DNA from: Patescibacteria group bacterium
Lineage (GTDB): Bacteria > Patescibacteriota > Patescibacteriia > Patescibacteriales > JAQVLT01
Length of the DNA: 64,000 nt
Assembly: GCA_028704015.1 (NCBI GenBank)
Contig: JAQVLT010000002.1
Location: 9,499-73,498, forward strand
Reading direction: 5' to 3'
This document shows, one piece after another, positions 1-63,155 of the stretch. Numbering within the stretch: the first letter of the stretch is position 1; every line of letters starts with the position of its first letter. The notes beneath the pieces were generated by a model, which was given only the letters and a program-made list of their open reading frames with translations, was not told the origin of the DNA and searched no databases. The position numbers and the translations under genes were made by a program.

Positions 1-579
1 ATCACCACGGTAACGCATAAACGTTTTTCGTATTTTTCCGAAGAGATATTTTGTGATTTGTTTATTGATAATTTGCGGATTTGTAAACAATTGAAAGATT
101 TTAAATTATATGGATTTATAATCGTTCCCGATCACGCACATTTGTTAATCAAGTCGGGAGAAAAATTTAATATTTCTGAGAAGATGTTTTCAATCAAAAA
201 GCAATTTTCGCATGATGTTAATCGCGTATTGGGTTTTAATGAGCCATATCCTGAAAATGTAAAAATTGAAGGCGGGCAAACGTTTGCCCGCCTTCAATGG
301 GAGAAAATTATTTTTCCACATCAAAAAAGAGTTAATAAATATCGCGAACAATTTATAAACAAATACGGCCACGATCAATTTCAAATCCCACCATTCAAAT
401 GGCAGGAATCGTTCCGTGACCATGTTATCCGTAACGAGAAAGATTTTTTAAATCATCTCAATTATATTTTTAATAATTGTGTCAAACATAATATTTATAA
501 TAATCCGGAAACATATCATTGGTCGTTTTGCAATGAAGAATTTAAGGATTTGATTGATGATTATTTTGGACAAAAATAA
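1..579 (+). CDS. HUH/Y1 IS200-like (RayT-like) transposase-family protein, 5' end outside window
   Basis: Frame is open from nt 1 (ITTVTHKRFSYF...). HUH motif in PDHAHLLIK; Tyr region LNYIFNNC. Paralogue of the 27186 and 62449 genes. Confidence 0.55.
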   Translation: MTTVTHKRFSYFSEEIFCDLFIDNLRICKQLKDFKLYGFIIVPDHAHLLIKSGEKFNISEKMFSIKKQFSHDVNRVLGFNEPYPENVKIEGGQTFARLQWEKIIFPHQKRVNKYREQFINKYGHDQFQIPPFKWQESFRDHVIRNEKDFLNHLNYIFNNCVKHNIYNNPETYHWSFCNEEFKDLIDDYFGQK

Positions 580-3915: not shown

Positions 3916-3947
3916 ATGAAGGCGACATTTACAAATGTCGCCTTCAT
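3916..3947. terminator. bidirectional hairpin between convergent smc and the 673-aa gene
   Basis: Perfect 15-bp arms atgaaggcgacattt / aaatgtcgccttcat, followed by tttta. Confidence 0.55.
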
Positions 3948-8249: not shown

Positions 8250-8284
8250 CCTCACCCTATCCCTCTCCTTTGCAAGGAGAGGGG
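8250..8284. repeat. CCCTCTCC/GGAGAGGG hairpin (family C)
   Basis: cctcaccc tat ccctctcc tttgcaa ggagagggg. The 3' arm sits 9 nt before the ATG at 8293 and looks like an SD. Confidence 0.6.
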
Positions 8285-14847: not shown

Positions 14848-14870
14848 GCCTTGCCTATCGGCAGACAGGC
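14848..14870. repeat. degenerate family B palindrome
   Basis: gccttgcctatcggcagacaggc, directly after the SBP stop codon. Confidence 0.4.
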
Positions 14871-17493: not shown

Positions 17494-17526
17494 GAAGGCG
17501 GCTCGCCAAATCGGCGAGCCGCCTTC
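17494..17526. repeat. GC-rich perfect hairpin (GCCGCCTTCG type)
   Basis: gaaggcggctcgcc aaatc ggcgagccgccttc. No T-run follows. Confidence 0.5.
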
Positions 17527-17538
17527 GTTAATTAGATA

Positions 17539-19236
17539 ATGGACAAAAATATTTATAAAAAAGAGATTGATGAATTGCTAAAAGTGAAGATTGGTTCGCG
17601 CCAAGATTTAATGGTAGCAAAAAGGAAAATTGCCAAGAAATATGGAATGGGAATTTTAACCAATTCTCAGATTTTGAGTTTTATTAAAAAACAAAATATC
17701 AAGAAAGAAACACCGGCATCTCGCCTTCTGGAAAATATTTTGCGTAAACGCGCGGTGCGAACGCTCTCCGGGATTGCTCCGGTCGCAGTATTAGTTAAAC
17801 CTTATAAATGTCCGGGAAAATGCGCTTATTGTCCAACAGAAAAAGACGTGCCGCAGAGTTATTTGTCAAACGAGCCGGCAGTGATGCGCGCGATTCGTTG
17901 TGATTATGATCCTTACACGCAAGTGCAAATGCGGCTTCGCGCTCTGGAAGCGAATGGACATCGGCCGGAAAAAATTGAATTGATTGTCATCGGCGGTACG
18001 TGGTCCTATTTGCCGGAAGAATATAAATTTTGGTACATCAAGGAATGTTTTCGAGCGGCGAACGAGTTTGTAAAAAATCAAAATGCAAAAATCAAAAGTC
18101 AAAATTACAATTCAAAATTAAAAACCTGCCTGCCGGTAGGCAAGGTTGAAAATTTAAAATTGAAACTTAAAAAAGAGCAGGAGAGAAATGAAAGTGCAAA
18201 ATACAGGATTATTGGAATTACGTTAGAGACCCGCCCCGATTATATTAATGAAAAAGAATTATTAGAGATGCGGGAGTTGGGTTGTACGCGCGTGGAATTG
18301 GGTGTGCAAGCGATTGATGATAAAATTTTAAATAAAAATAAACGCGGGCATGGTGTCAAAGAAATCGCGGCCGCGACAAAACTGCTGAAAGATTTCGGGT
18401 TTAAAGTAACTTATCATTTTATGCCCGGGCTTCCAGGATCAACGCCGGCCAAGGATTTAAAAATGTTTAAGCAATTATTTACTGATGAGCGCTTCCAGCC
18501 GGACCAAATAAAATTTTATCCAACCGTGGTGACGCGCGGCAGTTTGCTTTATCGTTGGTGGAAGGCAGGTAAATATAAACCATACTCAAATAAAATTTTA
18601 GAAAATTTAATTATTGCCTGCAAAAAAATCGTGCCGTCATATGTGCGAATAATTCGGTTGATTCGAGATATTCCGGGCGAGTCAATTATAGCCGGAAATC
18701 GCGTGACAAATCTGCGGCAGGTTCTAGAACAACGAGGCGTAAAGTGTAATTGTATTAGATGTAGAGAAGCACGTGGACAACAATTTACAATTAACAATTT
18801 ACAATTAACAATTCTAAAATATAAATCATCAGACGGAGAAGATTATTTTATTAGCGCGGACAGTAAAGATGGAAAAATTTTGTATGGATTTTGCCGATTG
18901 CGCCTTAAATCATCAAAACATGAAAACATTAAATCATTAAAACAAGATCGAGAAAATATGAAACTTGGTTTCGGGTACCCGAAACCAAGTTTCTTGGATG
19001 ACGCCGCGTTGATTCGGGAGTTGCATGTTTATGGAGAATTGGTGCCGGTGGGCGGTGGGAAAAAAGTTCAGCATGTTGGATTGGGAAAAAAATTAATGGC
19101 CGAAGCAGAGAGAATCGCGTATAAAAATGGTTTTAAGAAAATCGCAGTGATTGCCGGCATAGGCGTGCGTGGGTATTATCGGAAGTTAGGGTATCGACTG
19201 GAAAATAGTTATATGGTTAAGCAGTTACCTGGTTAA
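17539..19236 (+). CDS. elp3: Elp3-type radical-SAM/GNAT tRNA-modification enzyme
   Basis: Radical-SAM cluster motif CPGKCAYCP. C-terminal GNAT (HVGLGKKLMAEAERIA). Several repeat-derived in-frame inserts. Confidence 0.8.
   Translation: MDKNIYKKEIDELLKVKIGSRQDLMVAKRKIAKKYGMGILTNSQILSFIKKQNIKKETPASRLLENILRKRAVRTLSGIAPVAVLVKPYKCPGKCAYCPTEKDVPQSYLSNEPAVMRAIRCDYDPYTQVQMRLRALEANGHRPEKIELIVIGGTWSYLPEEYKFWYIKECFRAANEFVKNQNAKIKSQNYNSKLKTCLPVGKVENLKLKLKKEQERNESAKYRIIGITLETRPDYINEKELLEMRELGCTRVELGVQAIDDKILNKNKRGHGVKEIAAATKLLKDFGFKVTYHFMPGLPGSTPAKDLKMFKQLFTDERFQPDQIKFYPTVVTRGSLLYRWWKAGKYKPYSNKILENLIIACKKIVPSYVRIIRLIRDIPGESIIAGNRVTNLRQVLEQRGVKCNCIRCREARGQQFTINNLQLTILKYKSSDGEDYFISADSKDGKILYGFCRLRLKSSKHENIKSLKQDRENMKLGFGYPKPSFLDDAALIRELHVYGELVPVGGGKKVQHVGLGKKLMAEAERIAYKNGFKKIAVIAGIGVRGYYRKLGYRLENSYMVKQLPG
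18123..18147. repeat. family B palindrome inside the elp3 reading frame
   Basis: aacctgcctgccggtaggcaaggtt encodes TCLPVGKV. It sits in a ~100-nt AT-rich-armed insert (about 18076-18175). Confidence 0.65.
18960..18993. repeat. family A (GGGTACCC-core) perfect palindrome inside the elp3 reading frame
   Basis: gaaacttggtttcgggtacccgaaaccaagtttc encodes KLGFGYPKPSF. Confidence 0.7.
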
Positions 19237-22778: not shown

Positions 22779-22815
22779 ACCTCTCCCCCAGCCCCTCTCC
22801 TAGTCAGGAGAGGGG
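22779..22815. repeat. family C hairpin, left flank of the DUF559 gene
   Basis: acctctccccca g cccctctcc tagtca ggagagggg. Confidence 0.6.
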
Positions 22816-23183: not shown

Positions 23184-23185
23184 TT

Positions 23186-23219
23186 CCCTCTCCTGGCTAG
23201 GAGAGGGACAGAGAGAGGT
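23186..23219. repeat. family C hairpin, right flank of the DUF559 gene
   Basis: ccctctcc tggcta ggagaggg aca gagagaggt, ending at the folD ATG. Confidence 0.6.
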
Positions 23220-27185: not shown

Positions 27186-27917
27186 ATGCGAAAAATGAGT
27201 TTCCAAAATGAAAATTATTATCATATTTATAATAGAGGTGTTGATCACCGGGATATTTTTGGCGATGCCAATGATTTTGGCAGGTTTATCAGAAGTATGA
27301 GAATAATGAATAATAACTCAAATGAAGGACAACGTGATTATGTTTTGAGAAAAATGTTTAAAAGTGGTAAATATCCGGAGCTTAGCTCTGGGTACCCAGA
27401 GCTAAGCTCCTTAACGTCTGGTCTTTTTAATATTTTTAACCAGGAATTAAGATTAGTTGTAAGGAACTATTATAATTTTGTCGAAATAATTTCTTATTGT
27501 TTAAATAAAAATCACTATCATTTATTATTAAAACAATTAATTGATAAAGGCGTTGAAAAATTTCTCCACAAGATTGGCACTAGTTATACAAATTATTTCA
27601 ATTTGAGAAGTAAGCGTTCCGGCTCTCTTTTTGAAACCACTTATAAATCTGCTTATCTCGATACCGAAGGAAAAATTATTCGCGCGTCCACCTATATCAA
27701 CGGCAACCCGGAAATTCATAAAATTTGCCGGGCGGAAAATTGGCCGTGGTCCAGTTATTTAGATTATCTGGGGTTGAGAAGCGGCACGATGTGTAATAAA
27801 GAAATAATTTTAAGTCAATTTAGGTCTATTGAAGAATATCGGAAGTTTGTTAAGATGATTATAAGGGATGAAAAGGCGATTAAAGATGAATTGGAGAAAA
27901 TTGATGATAAATATTAG
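27186..27917 (+). CDS. HUH/Y1 IS200-like (RayT-like) transposase-family protein
   Basis: YHIYNRG strand, HUH motif NHYHLLL, Tyr region STYINGNP, NWPWSSYLDY tail. Carries an internal palindrome. Confidence 0.65.
   Translation: MRKMSFQNENYYHIYNRGVDHRDIFGDANDFGRFIRSMRIMNNNSNEGQRDYVLRKMFKSGKYPELSSGYPELSSLTSGLFNIFNQELRLVVRNYYNFVEIISYCLNKNHYHLLLKQLIDKGVEKFLHKIGTSYTNYFNLRSKRSGSLFETTYKSAYLDTEGKIIRASTYINGNPEIHKICRAENWPWSSYLDYLGLRSGTMCNKEIILSQFRSIEEYRKFVKMIIRDEKAIKDELEKIDDKY
27377..27410. repeat. family A palindrome inside the RayT-like ORF
   Basis: ggagcttagctctgggtacccagagctaagctcc is a perfect 34-nt palindrome. It encodes PELSSGYPELSS. Confidence 0.7.
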
Positions 27918-27950
27918 AAACTTAGTTTCGGGTACCCGAAACTAAGTTTC
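27917..27950. repeat. family A palindrome abutting the stop codon of the RayT-like gene
   Basis: gaaacttagtttcgggtacccgaaactaagtttc is a perfect 34-nt palindrome. Confidence 0.7.
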
Positions 27951-44318: not shown

Positions 44319-44931
44319 CCTGTCTGCCGGCAGGCAGGCTAAATAAATTCAAAATACTAAATCTAAATGATCAAAACAGCGACTAATTATTACGATTTGG
44401 AAGAAAGAACGTTAAAATTCGCTAAAATGGTAAGAGAATTTATTAAGAAATTGCCGAAAACAATTTCTAATATAGAAGATAGTAAACAATTAGCTCGTTC
44501 ATCCGGATCGGTTGGCGCTAACTACATTGAAGCTAACGAAGCATTAAGCAAGAAAGACTTTGTCATGAGAATAAAAATTTGCCGCAAAGAAGCGAAAGAA
44601 TCAAAATATTGGCTGTTACTAATTGATTGCCAAAAAGAATTAATACTAGAACGTGACACCTTAATTAAAGAAGCAACCGAACTAACTAAAATATTTGGAG
44701 CAATTTTAGAGAAATGCAAATAAAATAGTTGTATAATAGTGTTTTGAGTTTAAATAATTAGAATTTTGAATTTGTTTAGGATTTAGAGTTTAGTGCTTAG
44801 GGTTTCAGGAATGTTATAGCAGGAAGCGCAGGAATTAACTCTAATTTTTTCACGAATCACGCTCACCTTAGAAAAGAAAATTTAAAATTTAGTAATTTAT
44901 CATTCAATTAACCTGCCTGCCGGCAGACAGG
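44319..44931. mobile_element. 613-bp cassette: four-helix-bundle gene between inverted family B palindromes and AT-rich subterminal inverted repeats
   Basis: 44319-44338 (cctgtctgccggcaggcagg) is the exact reverse complement of 44912-44931. Inner arms (ctaaat.../aaattcaaaat versus attttgaattt/...atttag) match the gene-less element at 58564-58695. Confidence 0.5.
44367..44723 (+). CDS. four-helix-bundle protein (23S rRNA intervening-sequence protein family)
   Basis: SSGSVGANYIEANEALSKKDFVMRIKICRKEAKESKYWLLLI. Confidence 0.75.
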   Translation: MIKTATNYYDLEERTLKFAKMVREFIKKLPKTISNIEDSKQLARSSGSVGANYIEANEALSKKDFVMRIKICRKEAKESKYWLLLIDCQKELILERDTLIKEATELTKIFGAILEKCK

Positions 44932-61874: not shown

Positions 61875-62495
61875 ATGTCCGTGGAAACCCATATTTATGA
61901 TAAGCGTTTTTTTAAGAATACCATCAAATTGGAAGATGATTCTGCGGCGGCCGCAGTTTCTATTTTGATAAAATATTTTTTGCCCAGATCAGTTATTGAT
62001 ATTGGTTGCGGTTGTGGAATTTATTTGAAAGAATTTTCAAATCAAGGCGTAGAAATTTTTGGATACGACGGCGCTCCGGCAGCGCTTGAATCTTCACTGG
62101 TTGGCGACAAAATCAAGCTTCATGATTTATGCGTGCCATTGGTAATAAATAAAAAATTTGATCTTTGCCTCTGCGTTGAAGTCGCTGAACATTTACCGCC
62201 CGAATACGCTAATATTTTAGTTGAGACTTTGGCAAATTTATCTGACATTATTATTTTTTCTGCCGCCACTCCGGGCCAAGGTCCGCGTTCCATCGGACAT
62301 ATCAACGAACAGCCGCCGGAATATTGGCTAGAAAAATTTCAATCTAAAAATTTTATTTTTGACCAAAATATATCTTTAAAGATAAAAAAAGAAATGGAAG
62401 AAAAGGGTGTTGTCTGGTGGATTACTAAGAATTTAATGATATTTAAAAATGACCCGTGTCAAACCCGAGCCGGAAAAAATTTACCACATTTATAA
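61875..62495 (+). CDS. class I SAM-dependent methyltransferase
   Basis: Motif I IDIGCGCG. The 3' tail overlaps the 5' fragment of the disrupted RayT-like gene in another frame. Confidence 0.65.
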   Translation: MSVETHIYDKRFFKNTIKLEDDSAAAAVSILIKYFLPRSVIDIGCGCGIYLKEFSNQGVEIFGYDGAPAALESSLVGDKIKLHDLCVPLVINKKFDLCLCVEVAEHLPPEYANILVETLANLSDIIIFSAATPGQGPRSIGHINEQPPEYWLEKFQSKNFIFDQNISLKIKKEMEEKGVVWWITKNLMIFKNDPCQTRAGKNLPHL

Positions 62496-62515
62496 CCTGC
62501 CTACCGGCAGGCAGG
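62496..62515. repeat. family B palindrome interrupting the YHIYN|RG motif
   Basis: cctgcctaccggcaggcagg. Removing these 20 nt restores one continuous ORF. Confidence 0.7.
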
Positions 62516-62660
62516 TCGTGGCGTTGAAAAAAGAAAGATATTTATGGATAAATGGGATTATATTAGATTTTTAGAAAGTACGAGAGAGTTTAATTGTGAT
62601 GAACCGATTGGCAGTCTCTATTTAAAAAAATATCTCGCCCAAAAAAACAAAGTTAGCCAA

Positions 62661-62692
62661 GGTGTCGGACACCCTATAGGGTGTCCGACACC
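62661..62692. repeat. perfect 32-nt palindrome inside the RayT-like reading frame
   Basis: ggtgtcggacaccctatagggtgtccgacacc encodes GVGHPIGCPTP. It occupies the same position as the family A palindrome in the 27186 paralogue. Confidence 0.7.
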
Positions 62693-63155
62693 TAAACAAG
62701 AGATTTTAGTTGAATATTTAGCTTATTGTCTACTGCCTAATCATTTTCATTTTTTAATTATAGAAAAATCAGAGGGAGGTATCCCAAAATTCATGAAAAG
62801 GCTAAGCGGTGGCTATACTAATTATTTTAACAAAAAATATCTTCGCACCGGTTCATTGTTCCAAGGGAAATATAAAATATTTGAAGTAAAGTATAGTCAT
62901 TTTTTAAAATTATCCGTTTATGTTAATTGTAATGCCGAAGTGCATAAAATCAACCGAGCGGAAAATTGGCCATGGTCAAGCTATTTGGATTATATCAATG
63001 AAAGAAACGGAACTTTATGCAATTAAGAATTAATTTTGGAAGAATTTGGCAGCCGAAATAATTTTAAAAAATTTTGCCAAACAATTTTACCTGATATAAT
63101 AAAAAATAAAGAGTTATCGGAAAATTTAACTGAATAATTAAATTGCAAAGGGTTC

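What the first reader, a model, noticed from the sequence alone, without database searches (positions are those of the whole stretch)
62449..63026. A 20-nt palindrome splits the conserved YHIYN|RG motif of a RayT-like gene, and a different perfect palindrome lies in frame further in
Seen: 62449-62496 reads ATG ACC CGT GTC AAA CCC GAG CCG GAA AAA ATT TAC CAC ATT TAT AAC (MTRVKPEPEKIYHIYN). Then comes cctgcctaccggcaggcagg (family B, 20 nt). Then CGT GGC GTT GAA AAA AGA AAG ATA TTT ATG... (RGVEKRKIFMDKW...). This continues into the 160-aa ORF carrying PNHFHFLII (HUH), SVYVNCNA and NWPWSSYLDY. Deleting the 20 nt yields one ORF with the same YHIYNRG..(K/D)IF start as the intact paralogue at 27186. 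Because 20 is not a multiple of 3, the gene is frameshifted as it stands. A perfect 32-nt palindrome (ggtgtcggacaccc ta ta gggtgtccgacacc, 62661-62692) is translated as GVGHPIGCPTP. It sits at the position where the 27186 paralogue carries its own, unrelated 34-nt palindrome. Inference: hairpins repeatedly land in, or are retained at, one hotspot of the very gene family expected to mobilise hairpins. The family B copy has either inactivated this copy or acts as a reversible switch if it can be excised precisely.
Basis: partly seen in the sequence, partly recalled or inferred. Interest (0 to 1): 0.7.

Follow-up and report, generated by a model that had tools for sequence, protein, structure and literature searches.

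The report
Hairpin-broken RayT-like transposase pseudogene
A Patescibacteria copy of a REP-type (RayT-like) single-strand DNA transposase gene has been killed by the exact insertion of a widespread 20-base hairpin plus a stop codon, while the second palindrome inside it is a normal, conserved feature of this whole gene family.

Summary
62449-62496 encodes MTRVKPEPEKIYHIYN. A 20-nt hairpin follows (62496-62515). Then RGVEKRKIF... continues in another frame. Removing the 20 nt restores a Y1_Tnp (HUH) protein collinear with about 2,900 homologues, those named being Patescibacteria.

New: a second lesion. An in-frame TAA (63024-63026) replaces a conserved Lys, and the still-recognisable tail runs to 63137. 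The gene is therefore a recent pseudogene, and a switch is unlikely.

The 34-nt palindrome (62660-62693) is not a chance landing. Of 83 intact homologues, 44 carry a perfect hairpin at this loop, 22 just after the catalytic Tyr, and 45 at the stop codon. It is usually the same hairpin within one gene. In the closest clade the arms covary perfectly, and synonymous sites are conserved (0.80 vs 0.53).

In-frame REPs inside tnpA-REP genes were already described (Quentin 2018), so this is a new variant of a known kind.

Family B (CCTGCCTRCCGGYAGGCAGG) is a sharply bounded 20-mer. It occurs in at least 120 metagenome contigs and 48 viral stretches, and also in frame in housekeeping genes. It is not linked to any gene family, and its mobiliser is unknown.

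The parts
62449..62495 (+). 5' fragment of the Y1_Tnp pseudogene: MTRVKPEPEKIYHIY plus the first two bases of the Asn codon. It encodes strand beta1 with the start of the YHIYNRG motif.
   Evidence: In the AlphaFold model of homologue P0006, beta1 is residues 11-18.
62496..62515 (.). Family B hairpin CCTGCCTACCGGCAGGCAGG, an exact 20-nt insertion with no target duplication. With the flanking A and T it forms a 22-nt hairpin (62495-62516). It shifts the reading frame.
   Evidence: The empty site is inferred from 83 of 83 homologues with an uninterrupted YH[IV]xNRG motif.
62516..63023 (+). Main body of the pseudogene (T + CGT GGC...AAT): RGVEKRKIF...GTLCN. It carries the HUH motif HFHFLI (62742-62759), GSLFQG (62850-62867), the catalytic-Tyr motif YVNCN (62919-62933) and NWPWSSY (62964-62984).
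62660..62693 (.). Perfect 34-nt palindrome AGGTGTCGGACACCCTATAGGGTGTCCGACACCT. It consists of two inverted 13-nt mini-hairpins (GGTGTC-G-GACACC) around CTATAG. It is in frame (GVGHPIGCPTP) at the family's conserved 'site 1' loop, and it encodes the same peptide on both strands.
63024..63026 (+). In-frame TAA nonsense codon replacing the conserved Lys of ...LCNK(E/D)(I/V)IL...
63027..63137 (+). Orphaned C-terminal tail ELILEEFGSRNNFKKFCQTILPDIIKNKELSENLTE plus the original stop codon. It still aligns with homologue C-termini.
27186..27917 (+). Intact paralogue (243 aa, 39% identical). It carries its own site-1 palindrome at 27377-27410 (GGAGCTTAGCTCTGGGTACCCAGAGCTAAGCTCC).
27917..27950 (.). Site-3 palindrome GAAACTTAGTTTCGGGTACCCGAAACTAAGTTTC, which begins on the last base of the paralogue's stop codon. 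It has the same GGGTACCC-centred design as 27377-27410. A further copy at 18960-18993 lies in frame inside Elp3.
14850..14869 (.). Family B copy, intergenic (3 mismatches).
18125..18144 (.). Family B copy translated in frame (TCLPVGK), inside an insertion of about 30 aa with A+T-rich flanks in the Elp3 gene.
44319..44338 (.). Family B copy, intergenic, upstream of a 23S_rRNA_IVP-family gene.
44912..44931 (.). Family B copy, intergenic, downstream of the same small gene.

Best explanation
The locus is a recently inactivated copy of a RayT/TnpA-REP-like Y1 HUH single-strand DNA transposase gene; every named homologue or locus title that matches is a metagenome-assembled genome, mostly Patescibacteria. 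Two lesions are shown.
1. An exact 20-nt copy of a dispersed hairpin (family B) sits between the Asn and Arg codons of the invariant YHIYN|RG motif. This is inside core strand beta1. There is no target duplication, and the frame is shifted.
2. A TAA replaces a conserved Lys and cuts off the conserved 36-aa tail.

The second palindrome (62660-62693) is not damage. It is the family's normal 'site-1' element, a REPIN-like inverted doublet of a small hairpin carried in frame in a surface loop before the HUH strand. In this family the same hairpin typically recurs just after the catalytic-Tyr helix and at the stop codon, and sometimes upstream. The gene therefore sits in, and partly contains, its own REP cluster, in a REPtron-like arrangement.

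**Inferred, not shown**
- The intragenic hairpins are kept by constraint at the DNA level, most likely as cognate substrates or recognition sites of the encoded enzyme, at the few protein loops that tolerate 7-15 extra residues.
- Family B was inserted as single-stranded DNA by an HUH-type 'peel-and-paste' reaction supplied in trans. This would explain the exact, duplication-free junctions.
- Here B hit an intolerant site and killed the gene, after which a nonsense mutation accumulated.
For: **Gene identity**
- Pfam Y1_Tnp is above its cut-off for the repaired gene and for the paralogue.
- 2,906 homologues were found; the few with source names are labelled Patescibacteria or related candidate phyla, with one Omnitrophota.
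- All invariant residues are retained.
- The AlphaFold model of the nearest intact homologue has pLDDT 90.3. Its best PDB match is 4er8, the E. coli REP-associated tyrosine transposase (E 6e-7), ahead of the IS608 and ISDra2 TnpA structures.

**Lesions**
- Frame change at 62496-62516 and TAA at 63024-63026, with a collinear alignment running through both.
- None of 83 intact homologues has anything inserted in YH[IV]xNRG.
- The three short database entries checked (P0063, P0098, P0115) are start-codon mis-calls.

**Site-1 palindrome as a family feature**
- Perfect hairpins occur at site 1 in 44 of 83 genes, at site 2 in 22 of 83, and at site 3 in 45 of 83.
- Of the 38 genes with two or more occupied sites, 32 share a 10-mer between sites.
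- Only 1 hairpin lies elsewhere in a gene.
- Hairpin density is 1.89 per kb in these genes against 0.21 per kb in the rest of the loci.
- In the GVxHPIGCxTP clade the consensus is GGTGT-NNN-ACACCCTATAGGGTGT-N'N'N'-ACACC. Copies also lie upstream and just after the stop codon.
- On 10 palindromes, 99.3% of cells are paired, with 17 double-sided and 0 one-sided changes.
- The peptide pairs G/P, R/R, K/L, K/F and Q/W are as expected from arm complementarity.
- Nucleotide identity is 0.85 in the palindrome against 0.68 in the rest of the gene. At third codon positions it is 0.80 against 0.53.

**Family B as an independent dispersed element**
- 5 loci in the window.
- 8 copies in 1.17 Mb of other Patescibacteria genomes.
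- At least 120 metagenome contigs, with no conserved flanks, and 48 viral stretches.
- In frame in Elp3, PheS, PurH and LigA.

**Precedent.** In-frame REPs inside tnpA-REP genes, and REPs in unrelated genes, are described in PMC6006769, section 12.
Against: - No reads are available, so the 20-nt insertion and the TAA cannot be verified at read level. The only support is that two NCBI protein accessions carry the same 160-aa call.
- This copy has no hairpin upstream or after its original stop codon, unlike most relatives.
- No enzyme has been shown to move family B. B is not enriched next to Y1 genes (5 of 120 loci) or next to any Pfam family. The peel-and-paste step is therefore inference from the junctions alone.
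- B in frame in other genes implies net insert lengths that are multiples of 3 (for example +6 aa in PheS). This does not follow from a fixed 20-nt unit.
- The function of the intragenic hairpins is untested. Repeated replacement by gene conversion could mimic constraint.
Confidence: 0.8

Rival explanations
1. Reversible switch. Family B is excised precisely by a Y1 enzyme (for example the intact paralogue), restoring the reading frame, so that the gene toggles between off and on.
For: Removing exactly 20 nt restores an invariant motif with no scar. In the IS200/IS605 family, HUH Y1 transposases excise seamlessly (own knowledge; family reviewed in PMC6006769). An intact paralogue and a third Y1 gene are present in the same window.
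Against: A second disabling mutation (TAA at 63024) would remain after excision. No intact allele was found among 5.8 billion protein clusters; the next best hit is 65% identical. None was found in the JGI contigs either. No other family member has a hairpin at this site. B is not associated with Y1 genes.
Confidence: 0.08
2. Assembly or sequencing artefact. The 20-nt palindrome, the TAA, or both are errors in the metagenome-assembled genome, and the real gene is intact.
For: The source is a metagenome-assembled genome, and palindromes can be created or collapsed by assemblers (own knowledge).
Against: B is a genuine evolving repeat. Diverged copies occur in the window, including one translated in frame in Elp3. 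It is found in hundreds of independent assemblies. The insertion is mid-contig, with both flanks exactly collinear with homologues. Two protein accessions carry the same truncated call.
Confidence: 0.05
3. For the second palindrome: a neutral passenger. Hairpins insert all over these genomes and survive only where a protein loop tolerates them. The shared position would then reflect tolerance plus repeated independent landing, not function.
For: Hairpins also sit in frame in loops of unrelated housekeeping genes (Elp3, PheS, PurH). Site 1 is a low-confidence surface loop in the model. Different clades carry different hairpin sequences at the same site. PMC6006769 proposes loop tolerance for intragenic REPs.
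Against: Hairpin density is 9-fold higher in these genes than in the surrounding DNA, and hairpins occur only at three fixed sites. The same hairpin recurs within a gene (32 of 38). Within a clade at about 60% protein identity the palindrome stays perfect, with only compensated changes and conserved synonymous sites. Neutral decay would not give this.
Confidence: 0.2
4. Recoding. The interruption is bypassed at the RNA or translation level (a small intron, ribosome hopping, or a -1 frameshift), so that a full-length protein is still made.
For: A hairpin directly at the break and a G_AAA_AAA stretch 10 nt downstream resemble recoding signals (own knowledge of dnaX-type sites and T4 gene 60).
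Against: A -1 shift at G_AAA_AAA re-enters the frame only after replacing the invariant R17 and G18 with LPTGRQVVAL (the ORF at 62449-62574). There are no matched take-off and landing codons. B is translated straight through in PheS and Elp3, so it is not generally removed. No Rfam family matches. The TAA lesion remains.
Confidence: 0.02

Closest known systems
REP/REPIN-RAYT (TnpA-REP) systems: E. coli TnpA-REP (PDB 4er8) and Pseudomonas REPINs
   Same: - Y1 HUH fold, with 4er8 as the best structural match.
- Low copy number, with diverged paralogues (39% identity).
- Each gene is accompanied by its own hairpin family next to the gene.
- The hairpins are inverted doublets (REPIN-like), with compensatory changes keeping the long hairpin.
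   Different: - Sequence is far below the NCBIfam RayT cut-off (23 vs 80 bits).
- The hairpins lie inside the ORF at fixed loops and on the stop codon, not only in the flanks.
- Most lack a GT[AG]G foot. Their outer stems read ACTT[GA]G...C[CT]AAGT or GGTGT...ACACC.
- The doublets have no spacer.
- Genome-wide copy number is unknown.
TnpA-Y1 subclass 2.4 of Quentin et al. 2018 (PMC6006769): REPs inserted in frame within the tnpA-REP gene, and 'double-foot' REPs
   Same: In-frame, non-disruptive REP copies lie inside the transposase gene itself, in a peripheral loop. REPs also occur in unrelated genes. Some relatives here have GTAG...CTAC double-foot hairpins (L007, L012, L015, L076). The window's third Y1 gene (58-579) has its palindrome between the HUH and Tyr motifs, as described there.
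   Different: In the family studied here the sites are before the HUH strand and after the Tyr helix, not between the two motifs. A third copy overlaps the stop codon. The paper's text never mentions Parcubacteria or Candidatus taxa. Subclass membership was not tested.
Rickettsia palindromic elements and other 'selfish DNA in protein-coding genes' (own knowledge)
   Same: Short palindromic repeats are found in frame in loops of housekeeping genes (Elp3, PheS, PurH, LigA), as well as in intergenic DNA.
   Different: Family B is only 20 nt, whereas RPEs are about 100-150 nt. It has no conserved flanks. It is shared by very different genomes (GC 29-71%) and by viral contigs.
IS200/IS605 TnpA and their hairpin-only derivatives (PATEs)
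   Same: The insertion leaves no target duplication and has exact boundaries at a hairpin. The fold is related.
   Different: - There are no identical multi-copy IS copies.
- There is no tnpB gene; the neighbours are a methyltransferase and a starch-synthase-like gene.
- No conserved target tetranucleotide lies next to B.
- A 20-nt unit is far smaller than any described element.

Membership tests
Y1_Tnp / HUH single-Tyr transposase superfamily (PF01797) | Pfam model matched above the gathering score | tested here: met
   Repaired gene 33.6 bits and paralogue 26.4 bits, against a cut-off of 23.
Y1_Tnp / HUH single-Tyr transposase superfamily (PF01797) | HUH motif and a single catalytic Tyr motif (Y-x3-N) in the right order | tested here: met
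   HFHFLI at 62742-62759 and YVNCN at 62919-62933. Both are invariant columns in A1.
Y1_Tnp / HUH single-Tyr transposase superfamily (PF01797) | Fold of solved Y1 transposases | tested here: met
   Model of homologue P0006 (pLDDT 90.3). Foldseek hits 4er8_A at E 6e-7, and IS608 and ISDra2 TnpA at E about 1e-4. Tested on the homologue, not on the pseudogene product.
RayT / TnpA-REP (REP-associated tyrosine transposase) | NCBIfam equivalog NF047646 matched above its cut-off | tested here: not met
   22.7 and 23.0 bits against a cut-off of 80. The third Y1 gene (58-576, truncated by the window edge) scores 77.9.
RayT / TnpA-REP (REP-associated tyrosine transposase) | Gene flanked by its own cognate REP/REPIN hairpins (REPtron) | tested here: inconclusive
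   Met for the paralogue (27377 and 27917). Met for clade relatives, with upstream, internal and post-stop copies and 45 of 83 genes with a hairpin at the stop codon. This pseudogene has only the internal copy.
RayT / TnpA-REP (REP-associated tyrosine transposase) | Low copy number with diverged copies, unlike an insertion sequence | tested here: met
   Three Y1 genes in 64 kb. The two compared here, the repaired gene and the paralogue, are 39% identical.
RayT / TnpA-REP (REP-associated tyrosine transposase) | 5' GT[AG]G guide tetranucleotide at the foot of the hairpin | tested here: inconclusive
   This clade has ATAG/CTAT at the centre of the doublet. Some relatives have GTAG...CTAC (L007, L012, L015, L076). 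Most have ACTT[GA]G.
RayT / TnpA-REP (REP-associated tyrosine transposase) | Cognate REPs dispersed in many copies over the genome | not testable with these tools
   Only 64 kb of the genome is available. There is one extra copy of the paralogue's palindrome type (18960) and none of the 62660 type. In 41 of 83 related loci at least one further copy lies elsewhere in the locus.
RayT / TnpA-REP (REP-associated tyrosine transposase) | Sequence-specific cleavage and rejoining of the REP as single-stranded DNA | not testable with these tools
   Requires a biochemical assay.
Intragenic-REP tnpA-REP genes (subclass 2.4, PMC6006769) | REP inserted in frame within the tnpA-REP gene | tested here: met
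   62660-62693, 27377-27410 and 265-298 are all in frame. 64 of 83 homologues carry a hairpin at one of the three sites, two of which lie inside the ORF.
Intragenic-REP tnpA-REP genes (subclass 2.4, PMC6006769) | [quoted passage not shown] | tested here: not met
   Here the sites are 39-59 aa after the first Tyr of the YHxYNRG motif (before HUH) and 7-13 aa after the catalytic Tyr. Only the third gene (58-579) fits.
IS200/IS605 insertion sequence | Multiple near-identical copies with left and right subterminal hairpins, often with tnpB | tested here: not met
   The copies are 39% identical. The neighbours are a methyltransferase and a starch-synthase-like gene.
REP-like repeat (for family B) | Short G+C-rich imperfect palindrome, dispersed, mostly extragenic, with several copies per genome | tested here: met
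   5 loci in 64 kb against 0 expected. Most copies are intergenic.
REP-like repeat (for family B) | Species-specific sequence linked to one cognate RayT gene | tested here: not met
   The same 20-mer occurs in contigs of 29-71% GC and in viral contigs. A Y1 gene is present in only 5 of 120 loci. No Pfam family is enriched next to B. A GTAG foot is seen only in some other genomes (L237).

The most novel reading that the evidence does not exclude
Family B (CCTGCCTGCCGGCAGGCAGG) would be a bare 20-nt palindrome that is itself the mobile unit, the smallest transposable DNA so far described. It would be inserted without duplication into single-stranded DNA by HUH-type enzymes supplied in trans. It would spread across unrelated bacteria and their viruses, where it is then built into longer genome-specific repeats. 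This locus would be its cleanest filled site against an empty site. It would also be a case of one hairpin family knocking out the transposase that serves a rival hairpin family.
Probability: 0.2. Interest if true: 0.7.

Novelty: new variant of a known kind. Interest (0 to 1): 0.45.

Why it matters
The locus itself is a dead gene, but it is informative in three ways.
1. It gives a base-exact picture of a hairpin insertion. The 20 nt sit between two codons of an invariant motif, with no duplication and no loss. This constrains how such mini-palindromes move.
2. Following the second palindrome showed that a RayT-like family with about 2,900 detected homologues, whose named members are mostly Patescibacteria, carries its cognate REPIN-like hairpins inside the coding sequence. 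They sit at two fixed protein loops plus the stop codon, with perfect arm covariation and conserved synonymous sites. This extends the intragenic-REP observation of Quentin et al. 2018 to Patescibacteria, which their text does not mention. It also argues that these hairpins are maintained at the DNA level rather than merely tolerated. It offers a compact system, with enzyme gene and substrate in about 650 nt, for testing what RayT-like proteins do.
3. Family B is one 20-mer shared by genomes of 29-71% GC and by viral contigs. No paper in the searchable library holds its sequence. Its spread needs an explanation.

Tried and rejected
- **Intact allele or strain polymorphism.** The junction pattern with a 0-24 nt gap gave 0 hits in the JGI metagenome contigs. 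Exact look-up of the 160-aa product found no contig on record. The best non-self protein is 65% identical.
- **Conserved short form.** P0063, P0098 and P0115 start at the equivalent Met, but their contigs carry the full N-terminus in frame. They are start-codon mis-calls.
- **Recoding.** A -1 slip at G_AAA_AAA re-enters the frame but loses the invariant R17 and G18. There are no hop codons. B is translated through in other genes. No Rfam family matches beyond three tRNAs.
- **B as the cognate REP of this Y1 family.** No B-type peptide occurs in the 120 top homologues. B is not at sites 1-3 in any of the 83 genes. A Y1 gene is present in 5 of 120 B loci.
- **A gene that travels with B.** Pfam scan of 150 ORFs within 150 nt of B found no family in more than 2 members. 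The 23S_rRNA_IVP gene flanked by two B copies in the window is not found next to B elsewhere.
- **Conserved target or duplication for B.** The flank logos are flat apart from depletion of T at -1. The palindrome does not extend into the flanks in 103 of 134 copies.
- **PDB by sequence profile.** No hit at E <= 0.01. The relationship is visible only by fold.
- **Literature.** No paper was found that links REP or RAYT with Patescibacteria or the Candidate Phyla Radiation, and none holds the B sequence.
Full report
**1. The observation**

The sequence ATG ACC ... TAT AAC at 62449-62496 encodes MTRVKPEPEKIYHIYN. Twenty extra bases follow. Then CGT GGC GTT GAA AAA AGA AAG ATA TTT ATG... encodes RGVEKRKIFM... 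in a different frame.

The 20 bases can be taken as 62496-62515 (CCTGCCTACCGGCAGGCAGG, the repeat consensus) or as 62497-62516. Either deletion gives Asn-Arg. With the flanking A and T the insert forms an 8-bp stem with a 6-nt loop (-8 kcal/mol as ssDNA, z = -2.2).

The repaired product hits Pfam Y1_Tnp above its cut-off, as does the paralogue at 27186-27917. The two are 39% identical.

The second palindrome is perfect and is 34 nt long, not 32 (62660-62693). Its folding energy is -19.1 kcal/mol, z = -7.9. It is translated as GVGHPIGCPTP. In the protein alignment it occupies the same variable loop as the paralogue's 34-nt palindrome at 27377-27410.

**2. The gene is broken twice**

A search with the repaired protein found 2,906 homologues. 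The top 120 are mostly 190-240 aa long, and 94-100% of the query is covered in nearly all of them. Few carry a source name; those that do read Patescibacteria, Falkowbacteria or Moranbacteria, with one Omnitrophota. The only 100% match is the 160-aa ORF itself, annotated "MAG: transposase [Patescibacteria group bacterium]" under two accessions.

In the alignment the N-terminal fragment matches the family consensus YYHIYNRGVDKRxIF residue for residue. Every invariant column is retained.

The ORF stops at ...GTLCN-TAA (63024-63026), where 90% or more of homologues have Lys. The same frame continues as ELILEEFGSRNNFKKFCQTILPDIIKNKELSENLTE up to 63137. That stretch aligns with the conserved tail ...FKNFCxQVLPDIIxxKEL..LLE. 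A tblastn of P0002 gives a single HSP from 62502 to 63134 running through the TAA (E = 8e-96). It gives a separate HSP for EPEKIYHIYN in the other frame, ending at 62496.

So there are two independent disabling lesions in an otherwise well-preserved gene, which makes it a recent pseudogene.

Four other hits looked short. P0063, P0098 and P0115, which start at the equivalent Met, were checked on their contigs. All have the complete N-terminus in frame upstream, so they are start-codon mis-calls. P0119 keeps its N-terminus and looks cut at the C-terminal end. No homologue examined has anything inserted at YHIYN|RG.

In the AlphaFold model of the nearest intact homologue with the same palindrome peptide (P0006, pLDDT 90.3), YHIYNRG is strand beta1 (residues 11-18) of the core sheet.

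**3. The second palindrome is a family feature, not an accident**

I fetched 80 genomic loci encoding homologues and scanned the 83 intact genes for perfect hairpins (stem >= 9 bp, loop <= 7 nt, GC >= 40%).

| Site | Position | Genes with a hairpin (of 83) |
|---|---|---|
| Site 1 | 39-59 aa after the first Tyr of the YHxYNRG motif, before the HUH strand | 44 |
| Site 2 | 7-13 aa after the catalytic Tyr | 22 |
| Site 3 | -13 to +61 nt from the end of the stop codon | 45 |
| Anywhere else in the gene | | 1 |

- 64 genes have at least one of the three sites occupied, and 38 have two or more.
- In 32 of those 38 the hairpins at different sites share a 10-mer, so they are the same hairpin.
- Hairpin density is 1.89 per kb in these genes against 0.21 per kb in the remaining 1.1 Mb.
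- Examples with three copies of one hairpin are L035, L045, L080, L021 and L077. There it is read as LGSxTSK in the same frame at both internal sites.
- Between genes the inner stem differs, while the outer stem (often ACTT[GA]G...C[CT]AAGT, sometimes GTAG...CTAC) is shared.
- Several are "palindromes of palindromes", 34-52 nt long: two inverted copies of a unit hairpin (L017, L020, L005, L023, L040, L048). The three 34-nt palindromes in the window are of this type.

**4. The closest clade shows constraint at the DNA level**

Homologues with GVxHPIGCxTP were taken at the DNA level. Their site-1 element follows GGTGT-NNN-ACACC-CTATAG-GGTGT-N'N'N'-ACACC.

- L089 has the identical 32-nt core, although the proteins are about 61% identical.
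- Elements of the same type lie upstream of the gene (L083, L087, L088) and just after the stop codon (L001, L088). This is a REPtron-like arrangement.
- On 10 distinct copies, 99.3% of the pair cells are Watson-Crick. Seventeen cells carry changes on both sides and none carries a one-sided (G-T type) change. No shuffle reached the observed covariation score, and all slid registers fall to 29-50% paired.
- The same covariation is visible in the proteins as the pairs G/P, R/R, K/L, K/F and Q/W.
- Across the six genes, nucleotide identity is 0.85 in the palindrome against 0.68 in the rest of the gene. At third codon positions it is 0.80 against 0.53.
- Because it is a palindrome, it encodes the same peptide on both strands.

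Together this argues for retention under a nucleic-acid-level constraint. The alternative is an active copying process that keeps the two arms identical. It argues against repeated chance landing.

**5. What family this is**

By fold, the best PDB match is 4er8, the E. coli REP-associated tyrosine transposase bound to a REP hairpin (E = 6e-7, TM 0.66 on the target). The IS608 and ISDra2 TnpA structures follow.

By sequence the relationship is distant. A profile search of the PDB finds nothing at E <= 0.01. The NCBIfam RayT equivalog scores 23 bits against a cut-off of 80. The third Y1 gene at the window's start (cut by the edge) scores 77.9 bits. It carries its own in-frame palindrome (265-298, IEGGQTFARLQW) between the HUH and Tyr motifs.

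Quentin et al. [quoted passage not shown] They also note that REPs occur in unrelated genes. Their text never mentions Parcubacteria or Candidatus taxa. I found no paper linking REP or RAYT with Patescibacteria.

The phenomenon is therefore known in kind. The three fixed sites, the identity of the copies within a gene, the mostly non-GTAG hairpins and the lineage are the new variant.

**6. Family B**

*In this window and in related genomes*
- The 20-mer has five loci in the window (14850, 18125, 44319, 44912, 62496), against none expected in shuffles.
- Three are intergenic. Two of these flank a small 23S_rRNA_IVP-family gene.
- The copy at 18125 is translated in frame (TCLPVGK) within an A+T-rich insertion of about 30 aa in Elp3, relative to solved Elp3 structures.
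- The same Elp3 gene also carries, in frame, a copy of the paralogue's GGGTACCC-centred palindrome (18960-18993).
- B recurs with 2 or fewer mismatches 8 times in the 1.17 Mb of other Patescibacteria loci.

*In public collections*
Median GC is 44%, with a range of 29-71%.
- B is in 48 stretches of IMG/VR contigs, with median GC 62% and often several copies per contig.
- The flanks carry no conserved sequence, and in 103 of 134 copies the palindrome does not extend beyond the 20 nt.
- Two alleles dominate: the perfect palindrome (83 copies) and an A8 variant, seen in both orientations (24 + 23 copies). The window's disrupting copy is the A8 variant.
- About 30% of copies lie inside ORFs. These include PheS (+6 aa relative to solved structures), PurH and LigA.

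*Associations and context*
- B is not associated with Y1 genes (5 of 120 loci). It is not associated with any Pfam family among 150 neighbouring ORFs.
- In other genomes B is the core of longer, genome-specific repeats.
- In L237 some copies have a canonical 5' GTAG foot.
- In L147 a copy sits at the stem-loop junction of the T-arm of a tRNA 3' fragment.
- No paper in the library holds the sequence.

B is thus a real, evolving, mobile mini-palindrome of unknown mobiliser. Here the invariant motif provides a base-exact "empty site".

**7. Mechanism, and what is inferred**

*Shown*
- The gene's identity, its two lesions, and the exact duplication-free 20-nt insertion.
- The family-wide three-site hairpin architecture, with covariation and synonymous-site conservation.

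*Inferred*
- (a) The intragenic hairpins are the enzyme's cognate REPIN-like elements, held at the only loops that tolerate them.
- (b) B was inserted as single-stranded DNA by an HUH-type enzyme acting in trans. This would explain junctions without duplication.
- (c) The insertion came first or second, but either way the gene is no longer under selection.

*Arguments against a switch*
- The TAA lesion would remain after excision.
- No intact allele was found.
- No other family member carries a hairpin at this site.

*Arguments against recoding*
- The only nearby slippery site restores the frame at the cost of the invariant R17 and G18.
- B is translated through in other genes.

*Argument against an artefact*
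- B evolves and is found in hundreds of independent assemblies. Read-level confirmation of this particular insertion was not possible.

**8. Verdict**

- **Observation:** confirmed.
- **Interpretation:** partly supported. Inactivation and a conserved hairpin site are supported, but a switch is not. "Retained" fits better than "landing".
- **Novelty:** a new variant of a known kind.
- **Interest:** moderate. The locus itself is a pseudogene. It does expose a compact Patescibacteria RayT-like system with built-in hairpins, and an unexplained cross-taxon 20-nt palindrome.

Noticed in passing
window 17539-19236 (Elp3-family radical SAM/GNAT gene); inserts at about 18079-18170 and at 18960-18993: A housekeeping gene carries two different hairpin repeats in frame. 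One is family B, inside an insertion of about 30 aa with A+T-rich flanks (VKNQNAKIKSQNYNSKLKTCLPVGKVENLKLKLKKEQ). The other is a 34-nt GGGTACCC-centred palindrome (MKLGFGYPKPSF) of the type that follows the stop codon of the 27186 gene. Both fall in gaps relative to the solved Elp3 structure 5l7j.
   Followed up: partly
window 1-579 (ORF cut by the window start); palindromes at 265-298, 3916-3947 and 17494-17526: This is a third, more canonical RayT-like gene (NCBIfam REP_Tyr_transpos 77.9 bits). It has an in-frame 34-nt palindrome between the HUH and Tyr motifs. Two further palindromes with GAAGGCG-type arms lie in intergenic DNA and are probably its cognate family.
   Followed up: partly
window 44319-44931: Two family B copies bracket a small 23S_rRNA_IVP-family (four-helix bundle) gene at 44367-44723, giving a cassette-like layout. 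The arrangement was not seen next to B in 120 metagenome loci.
   Followed up: partly
L001-L080 (83 homologous genes), for example L035:10001-10660, L045:10010-10720, L080:10034-10750: The same gene-specific hairpin recurs at up to three fixed positions: the loop before the HUH strand, the loop after the Tyr helix, and on or after the stop codon. At both internal sites it is read in the same frame as LGSxTSK-like peptides. The outer stem ACTT[GA]G...C[CT]AAGT is conserved across genomes, while the inner stem covaries.
   Followed up: yes
L237:2648, 2897, 9001, 10422, 10690; L211 and L250; L217:2773 and 2806 (IMG/VR contigs): Family B occurs several times per contig in high-GC (60-67%) viral contigs. 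There it is embedded in longer genome-specific inverted repeats, and some copies have a 5' GTAG foot like canonical REPs. Two related contigs from different samples keep the copies at the same relative positions.
   Followed up: partly
L147:300-370: A family B copy sits between the 5' strand of the T-stem and the T-loop of a tRNA 3'-end fragment (GGGAG-[B]-TTCGATTCTCCCCGGGTCCACCA), just downstream of an intact tRNA-Ala. This may mean that B inserts into the loops of existing hairpins.
   Followed up: no
window 8261-8283, 22792-22815, 23185-23208; also L236:310-331: This is another hairpin family, (C)CCCTCTCC-loop-GGAGAGGG(G), with three intergenic copies in the window. A similar motif directly abuts family B in an unrelated viral contig.
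   Followed up: no
window 61875-62495 against 62449: The upstream methyltransferase ORF overlaps the start of the Y1 pseudogene by 47 nt. Its stop codon TAA (62493-62495) lies within the TAT AAC codons, immediately before the B insertion.
   Followed up: no
window 62660-62695, both strands: Because of its symmetry and phase, the palindrome encodes the identical peptide LGVGHPIGCPTP on the minus strand. Inverting the element would therefore leave the protein unchanged.
   Followed up: no
L157:3331-4140: Family B lies in frame (TCLPAGR) directly before an FVVMPNHVHGIVV stretch, which looks like the HUH strand of a different Y1-type protein. It would correspond to site 1. The ORF has no Pfam hit at E <= 0.001.
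   Followed up: no
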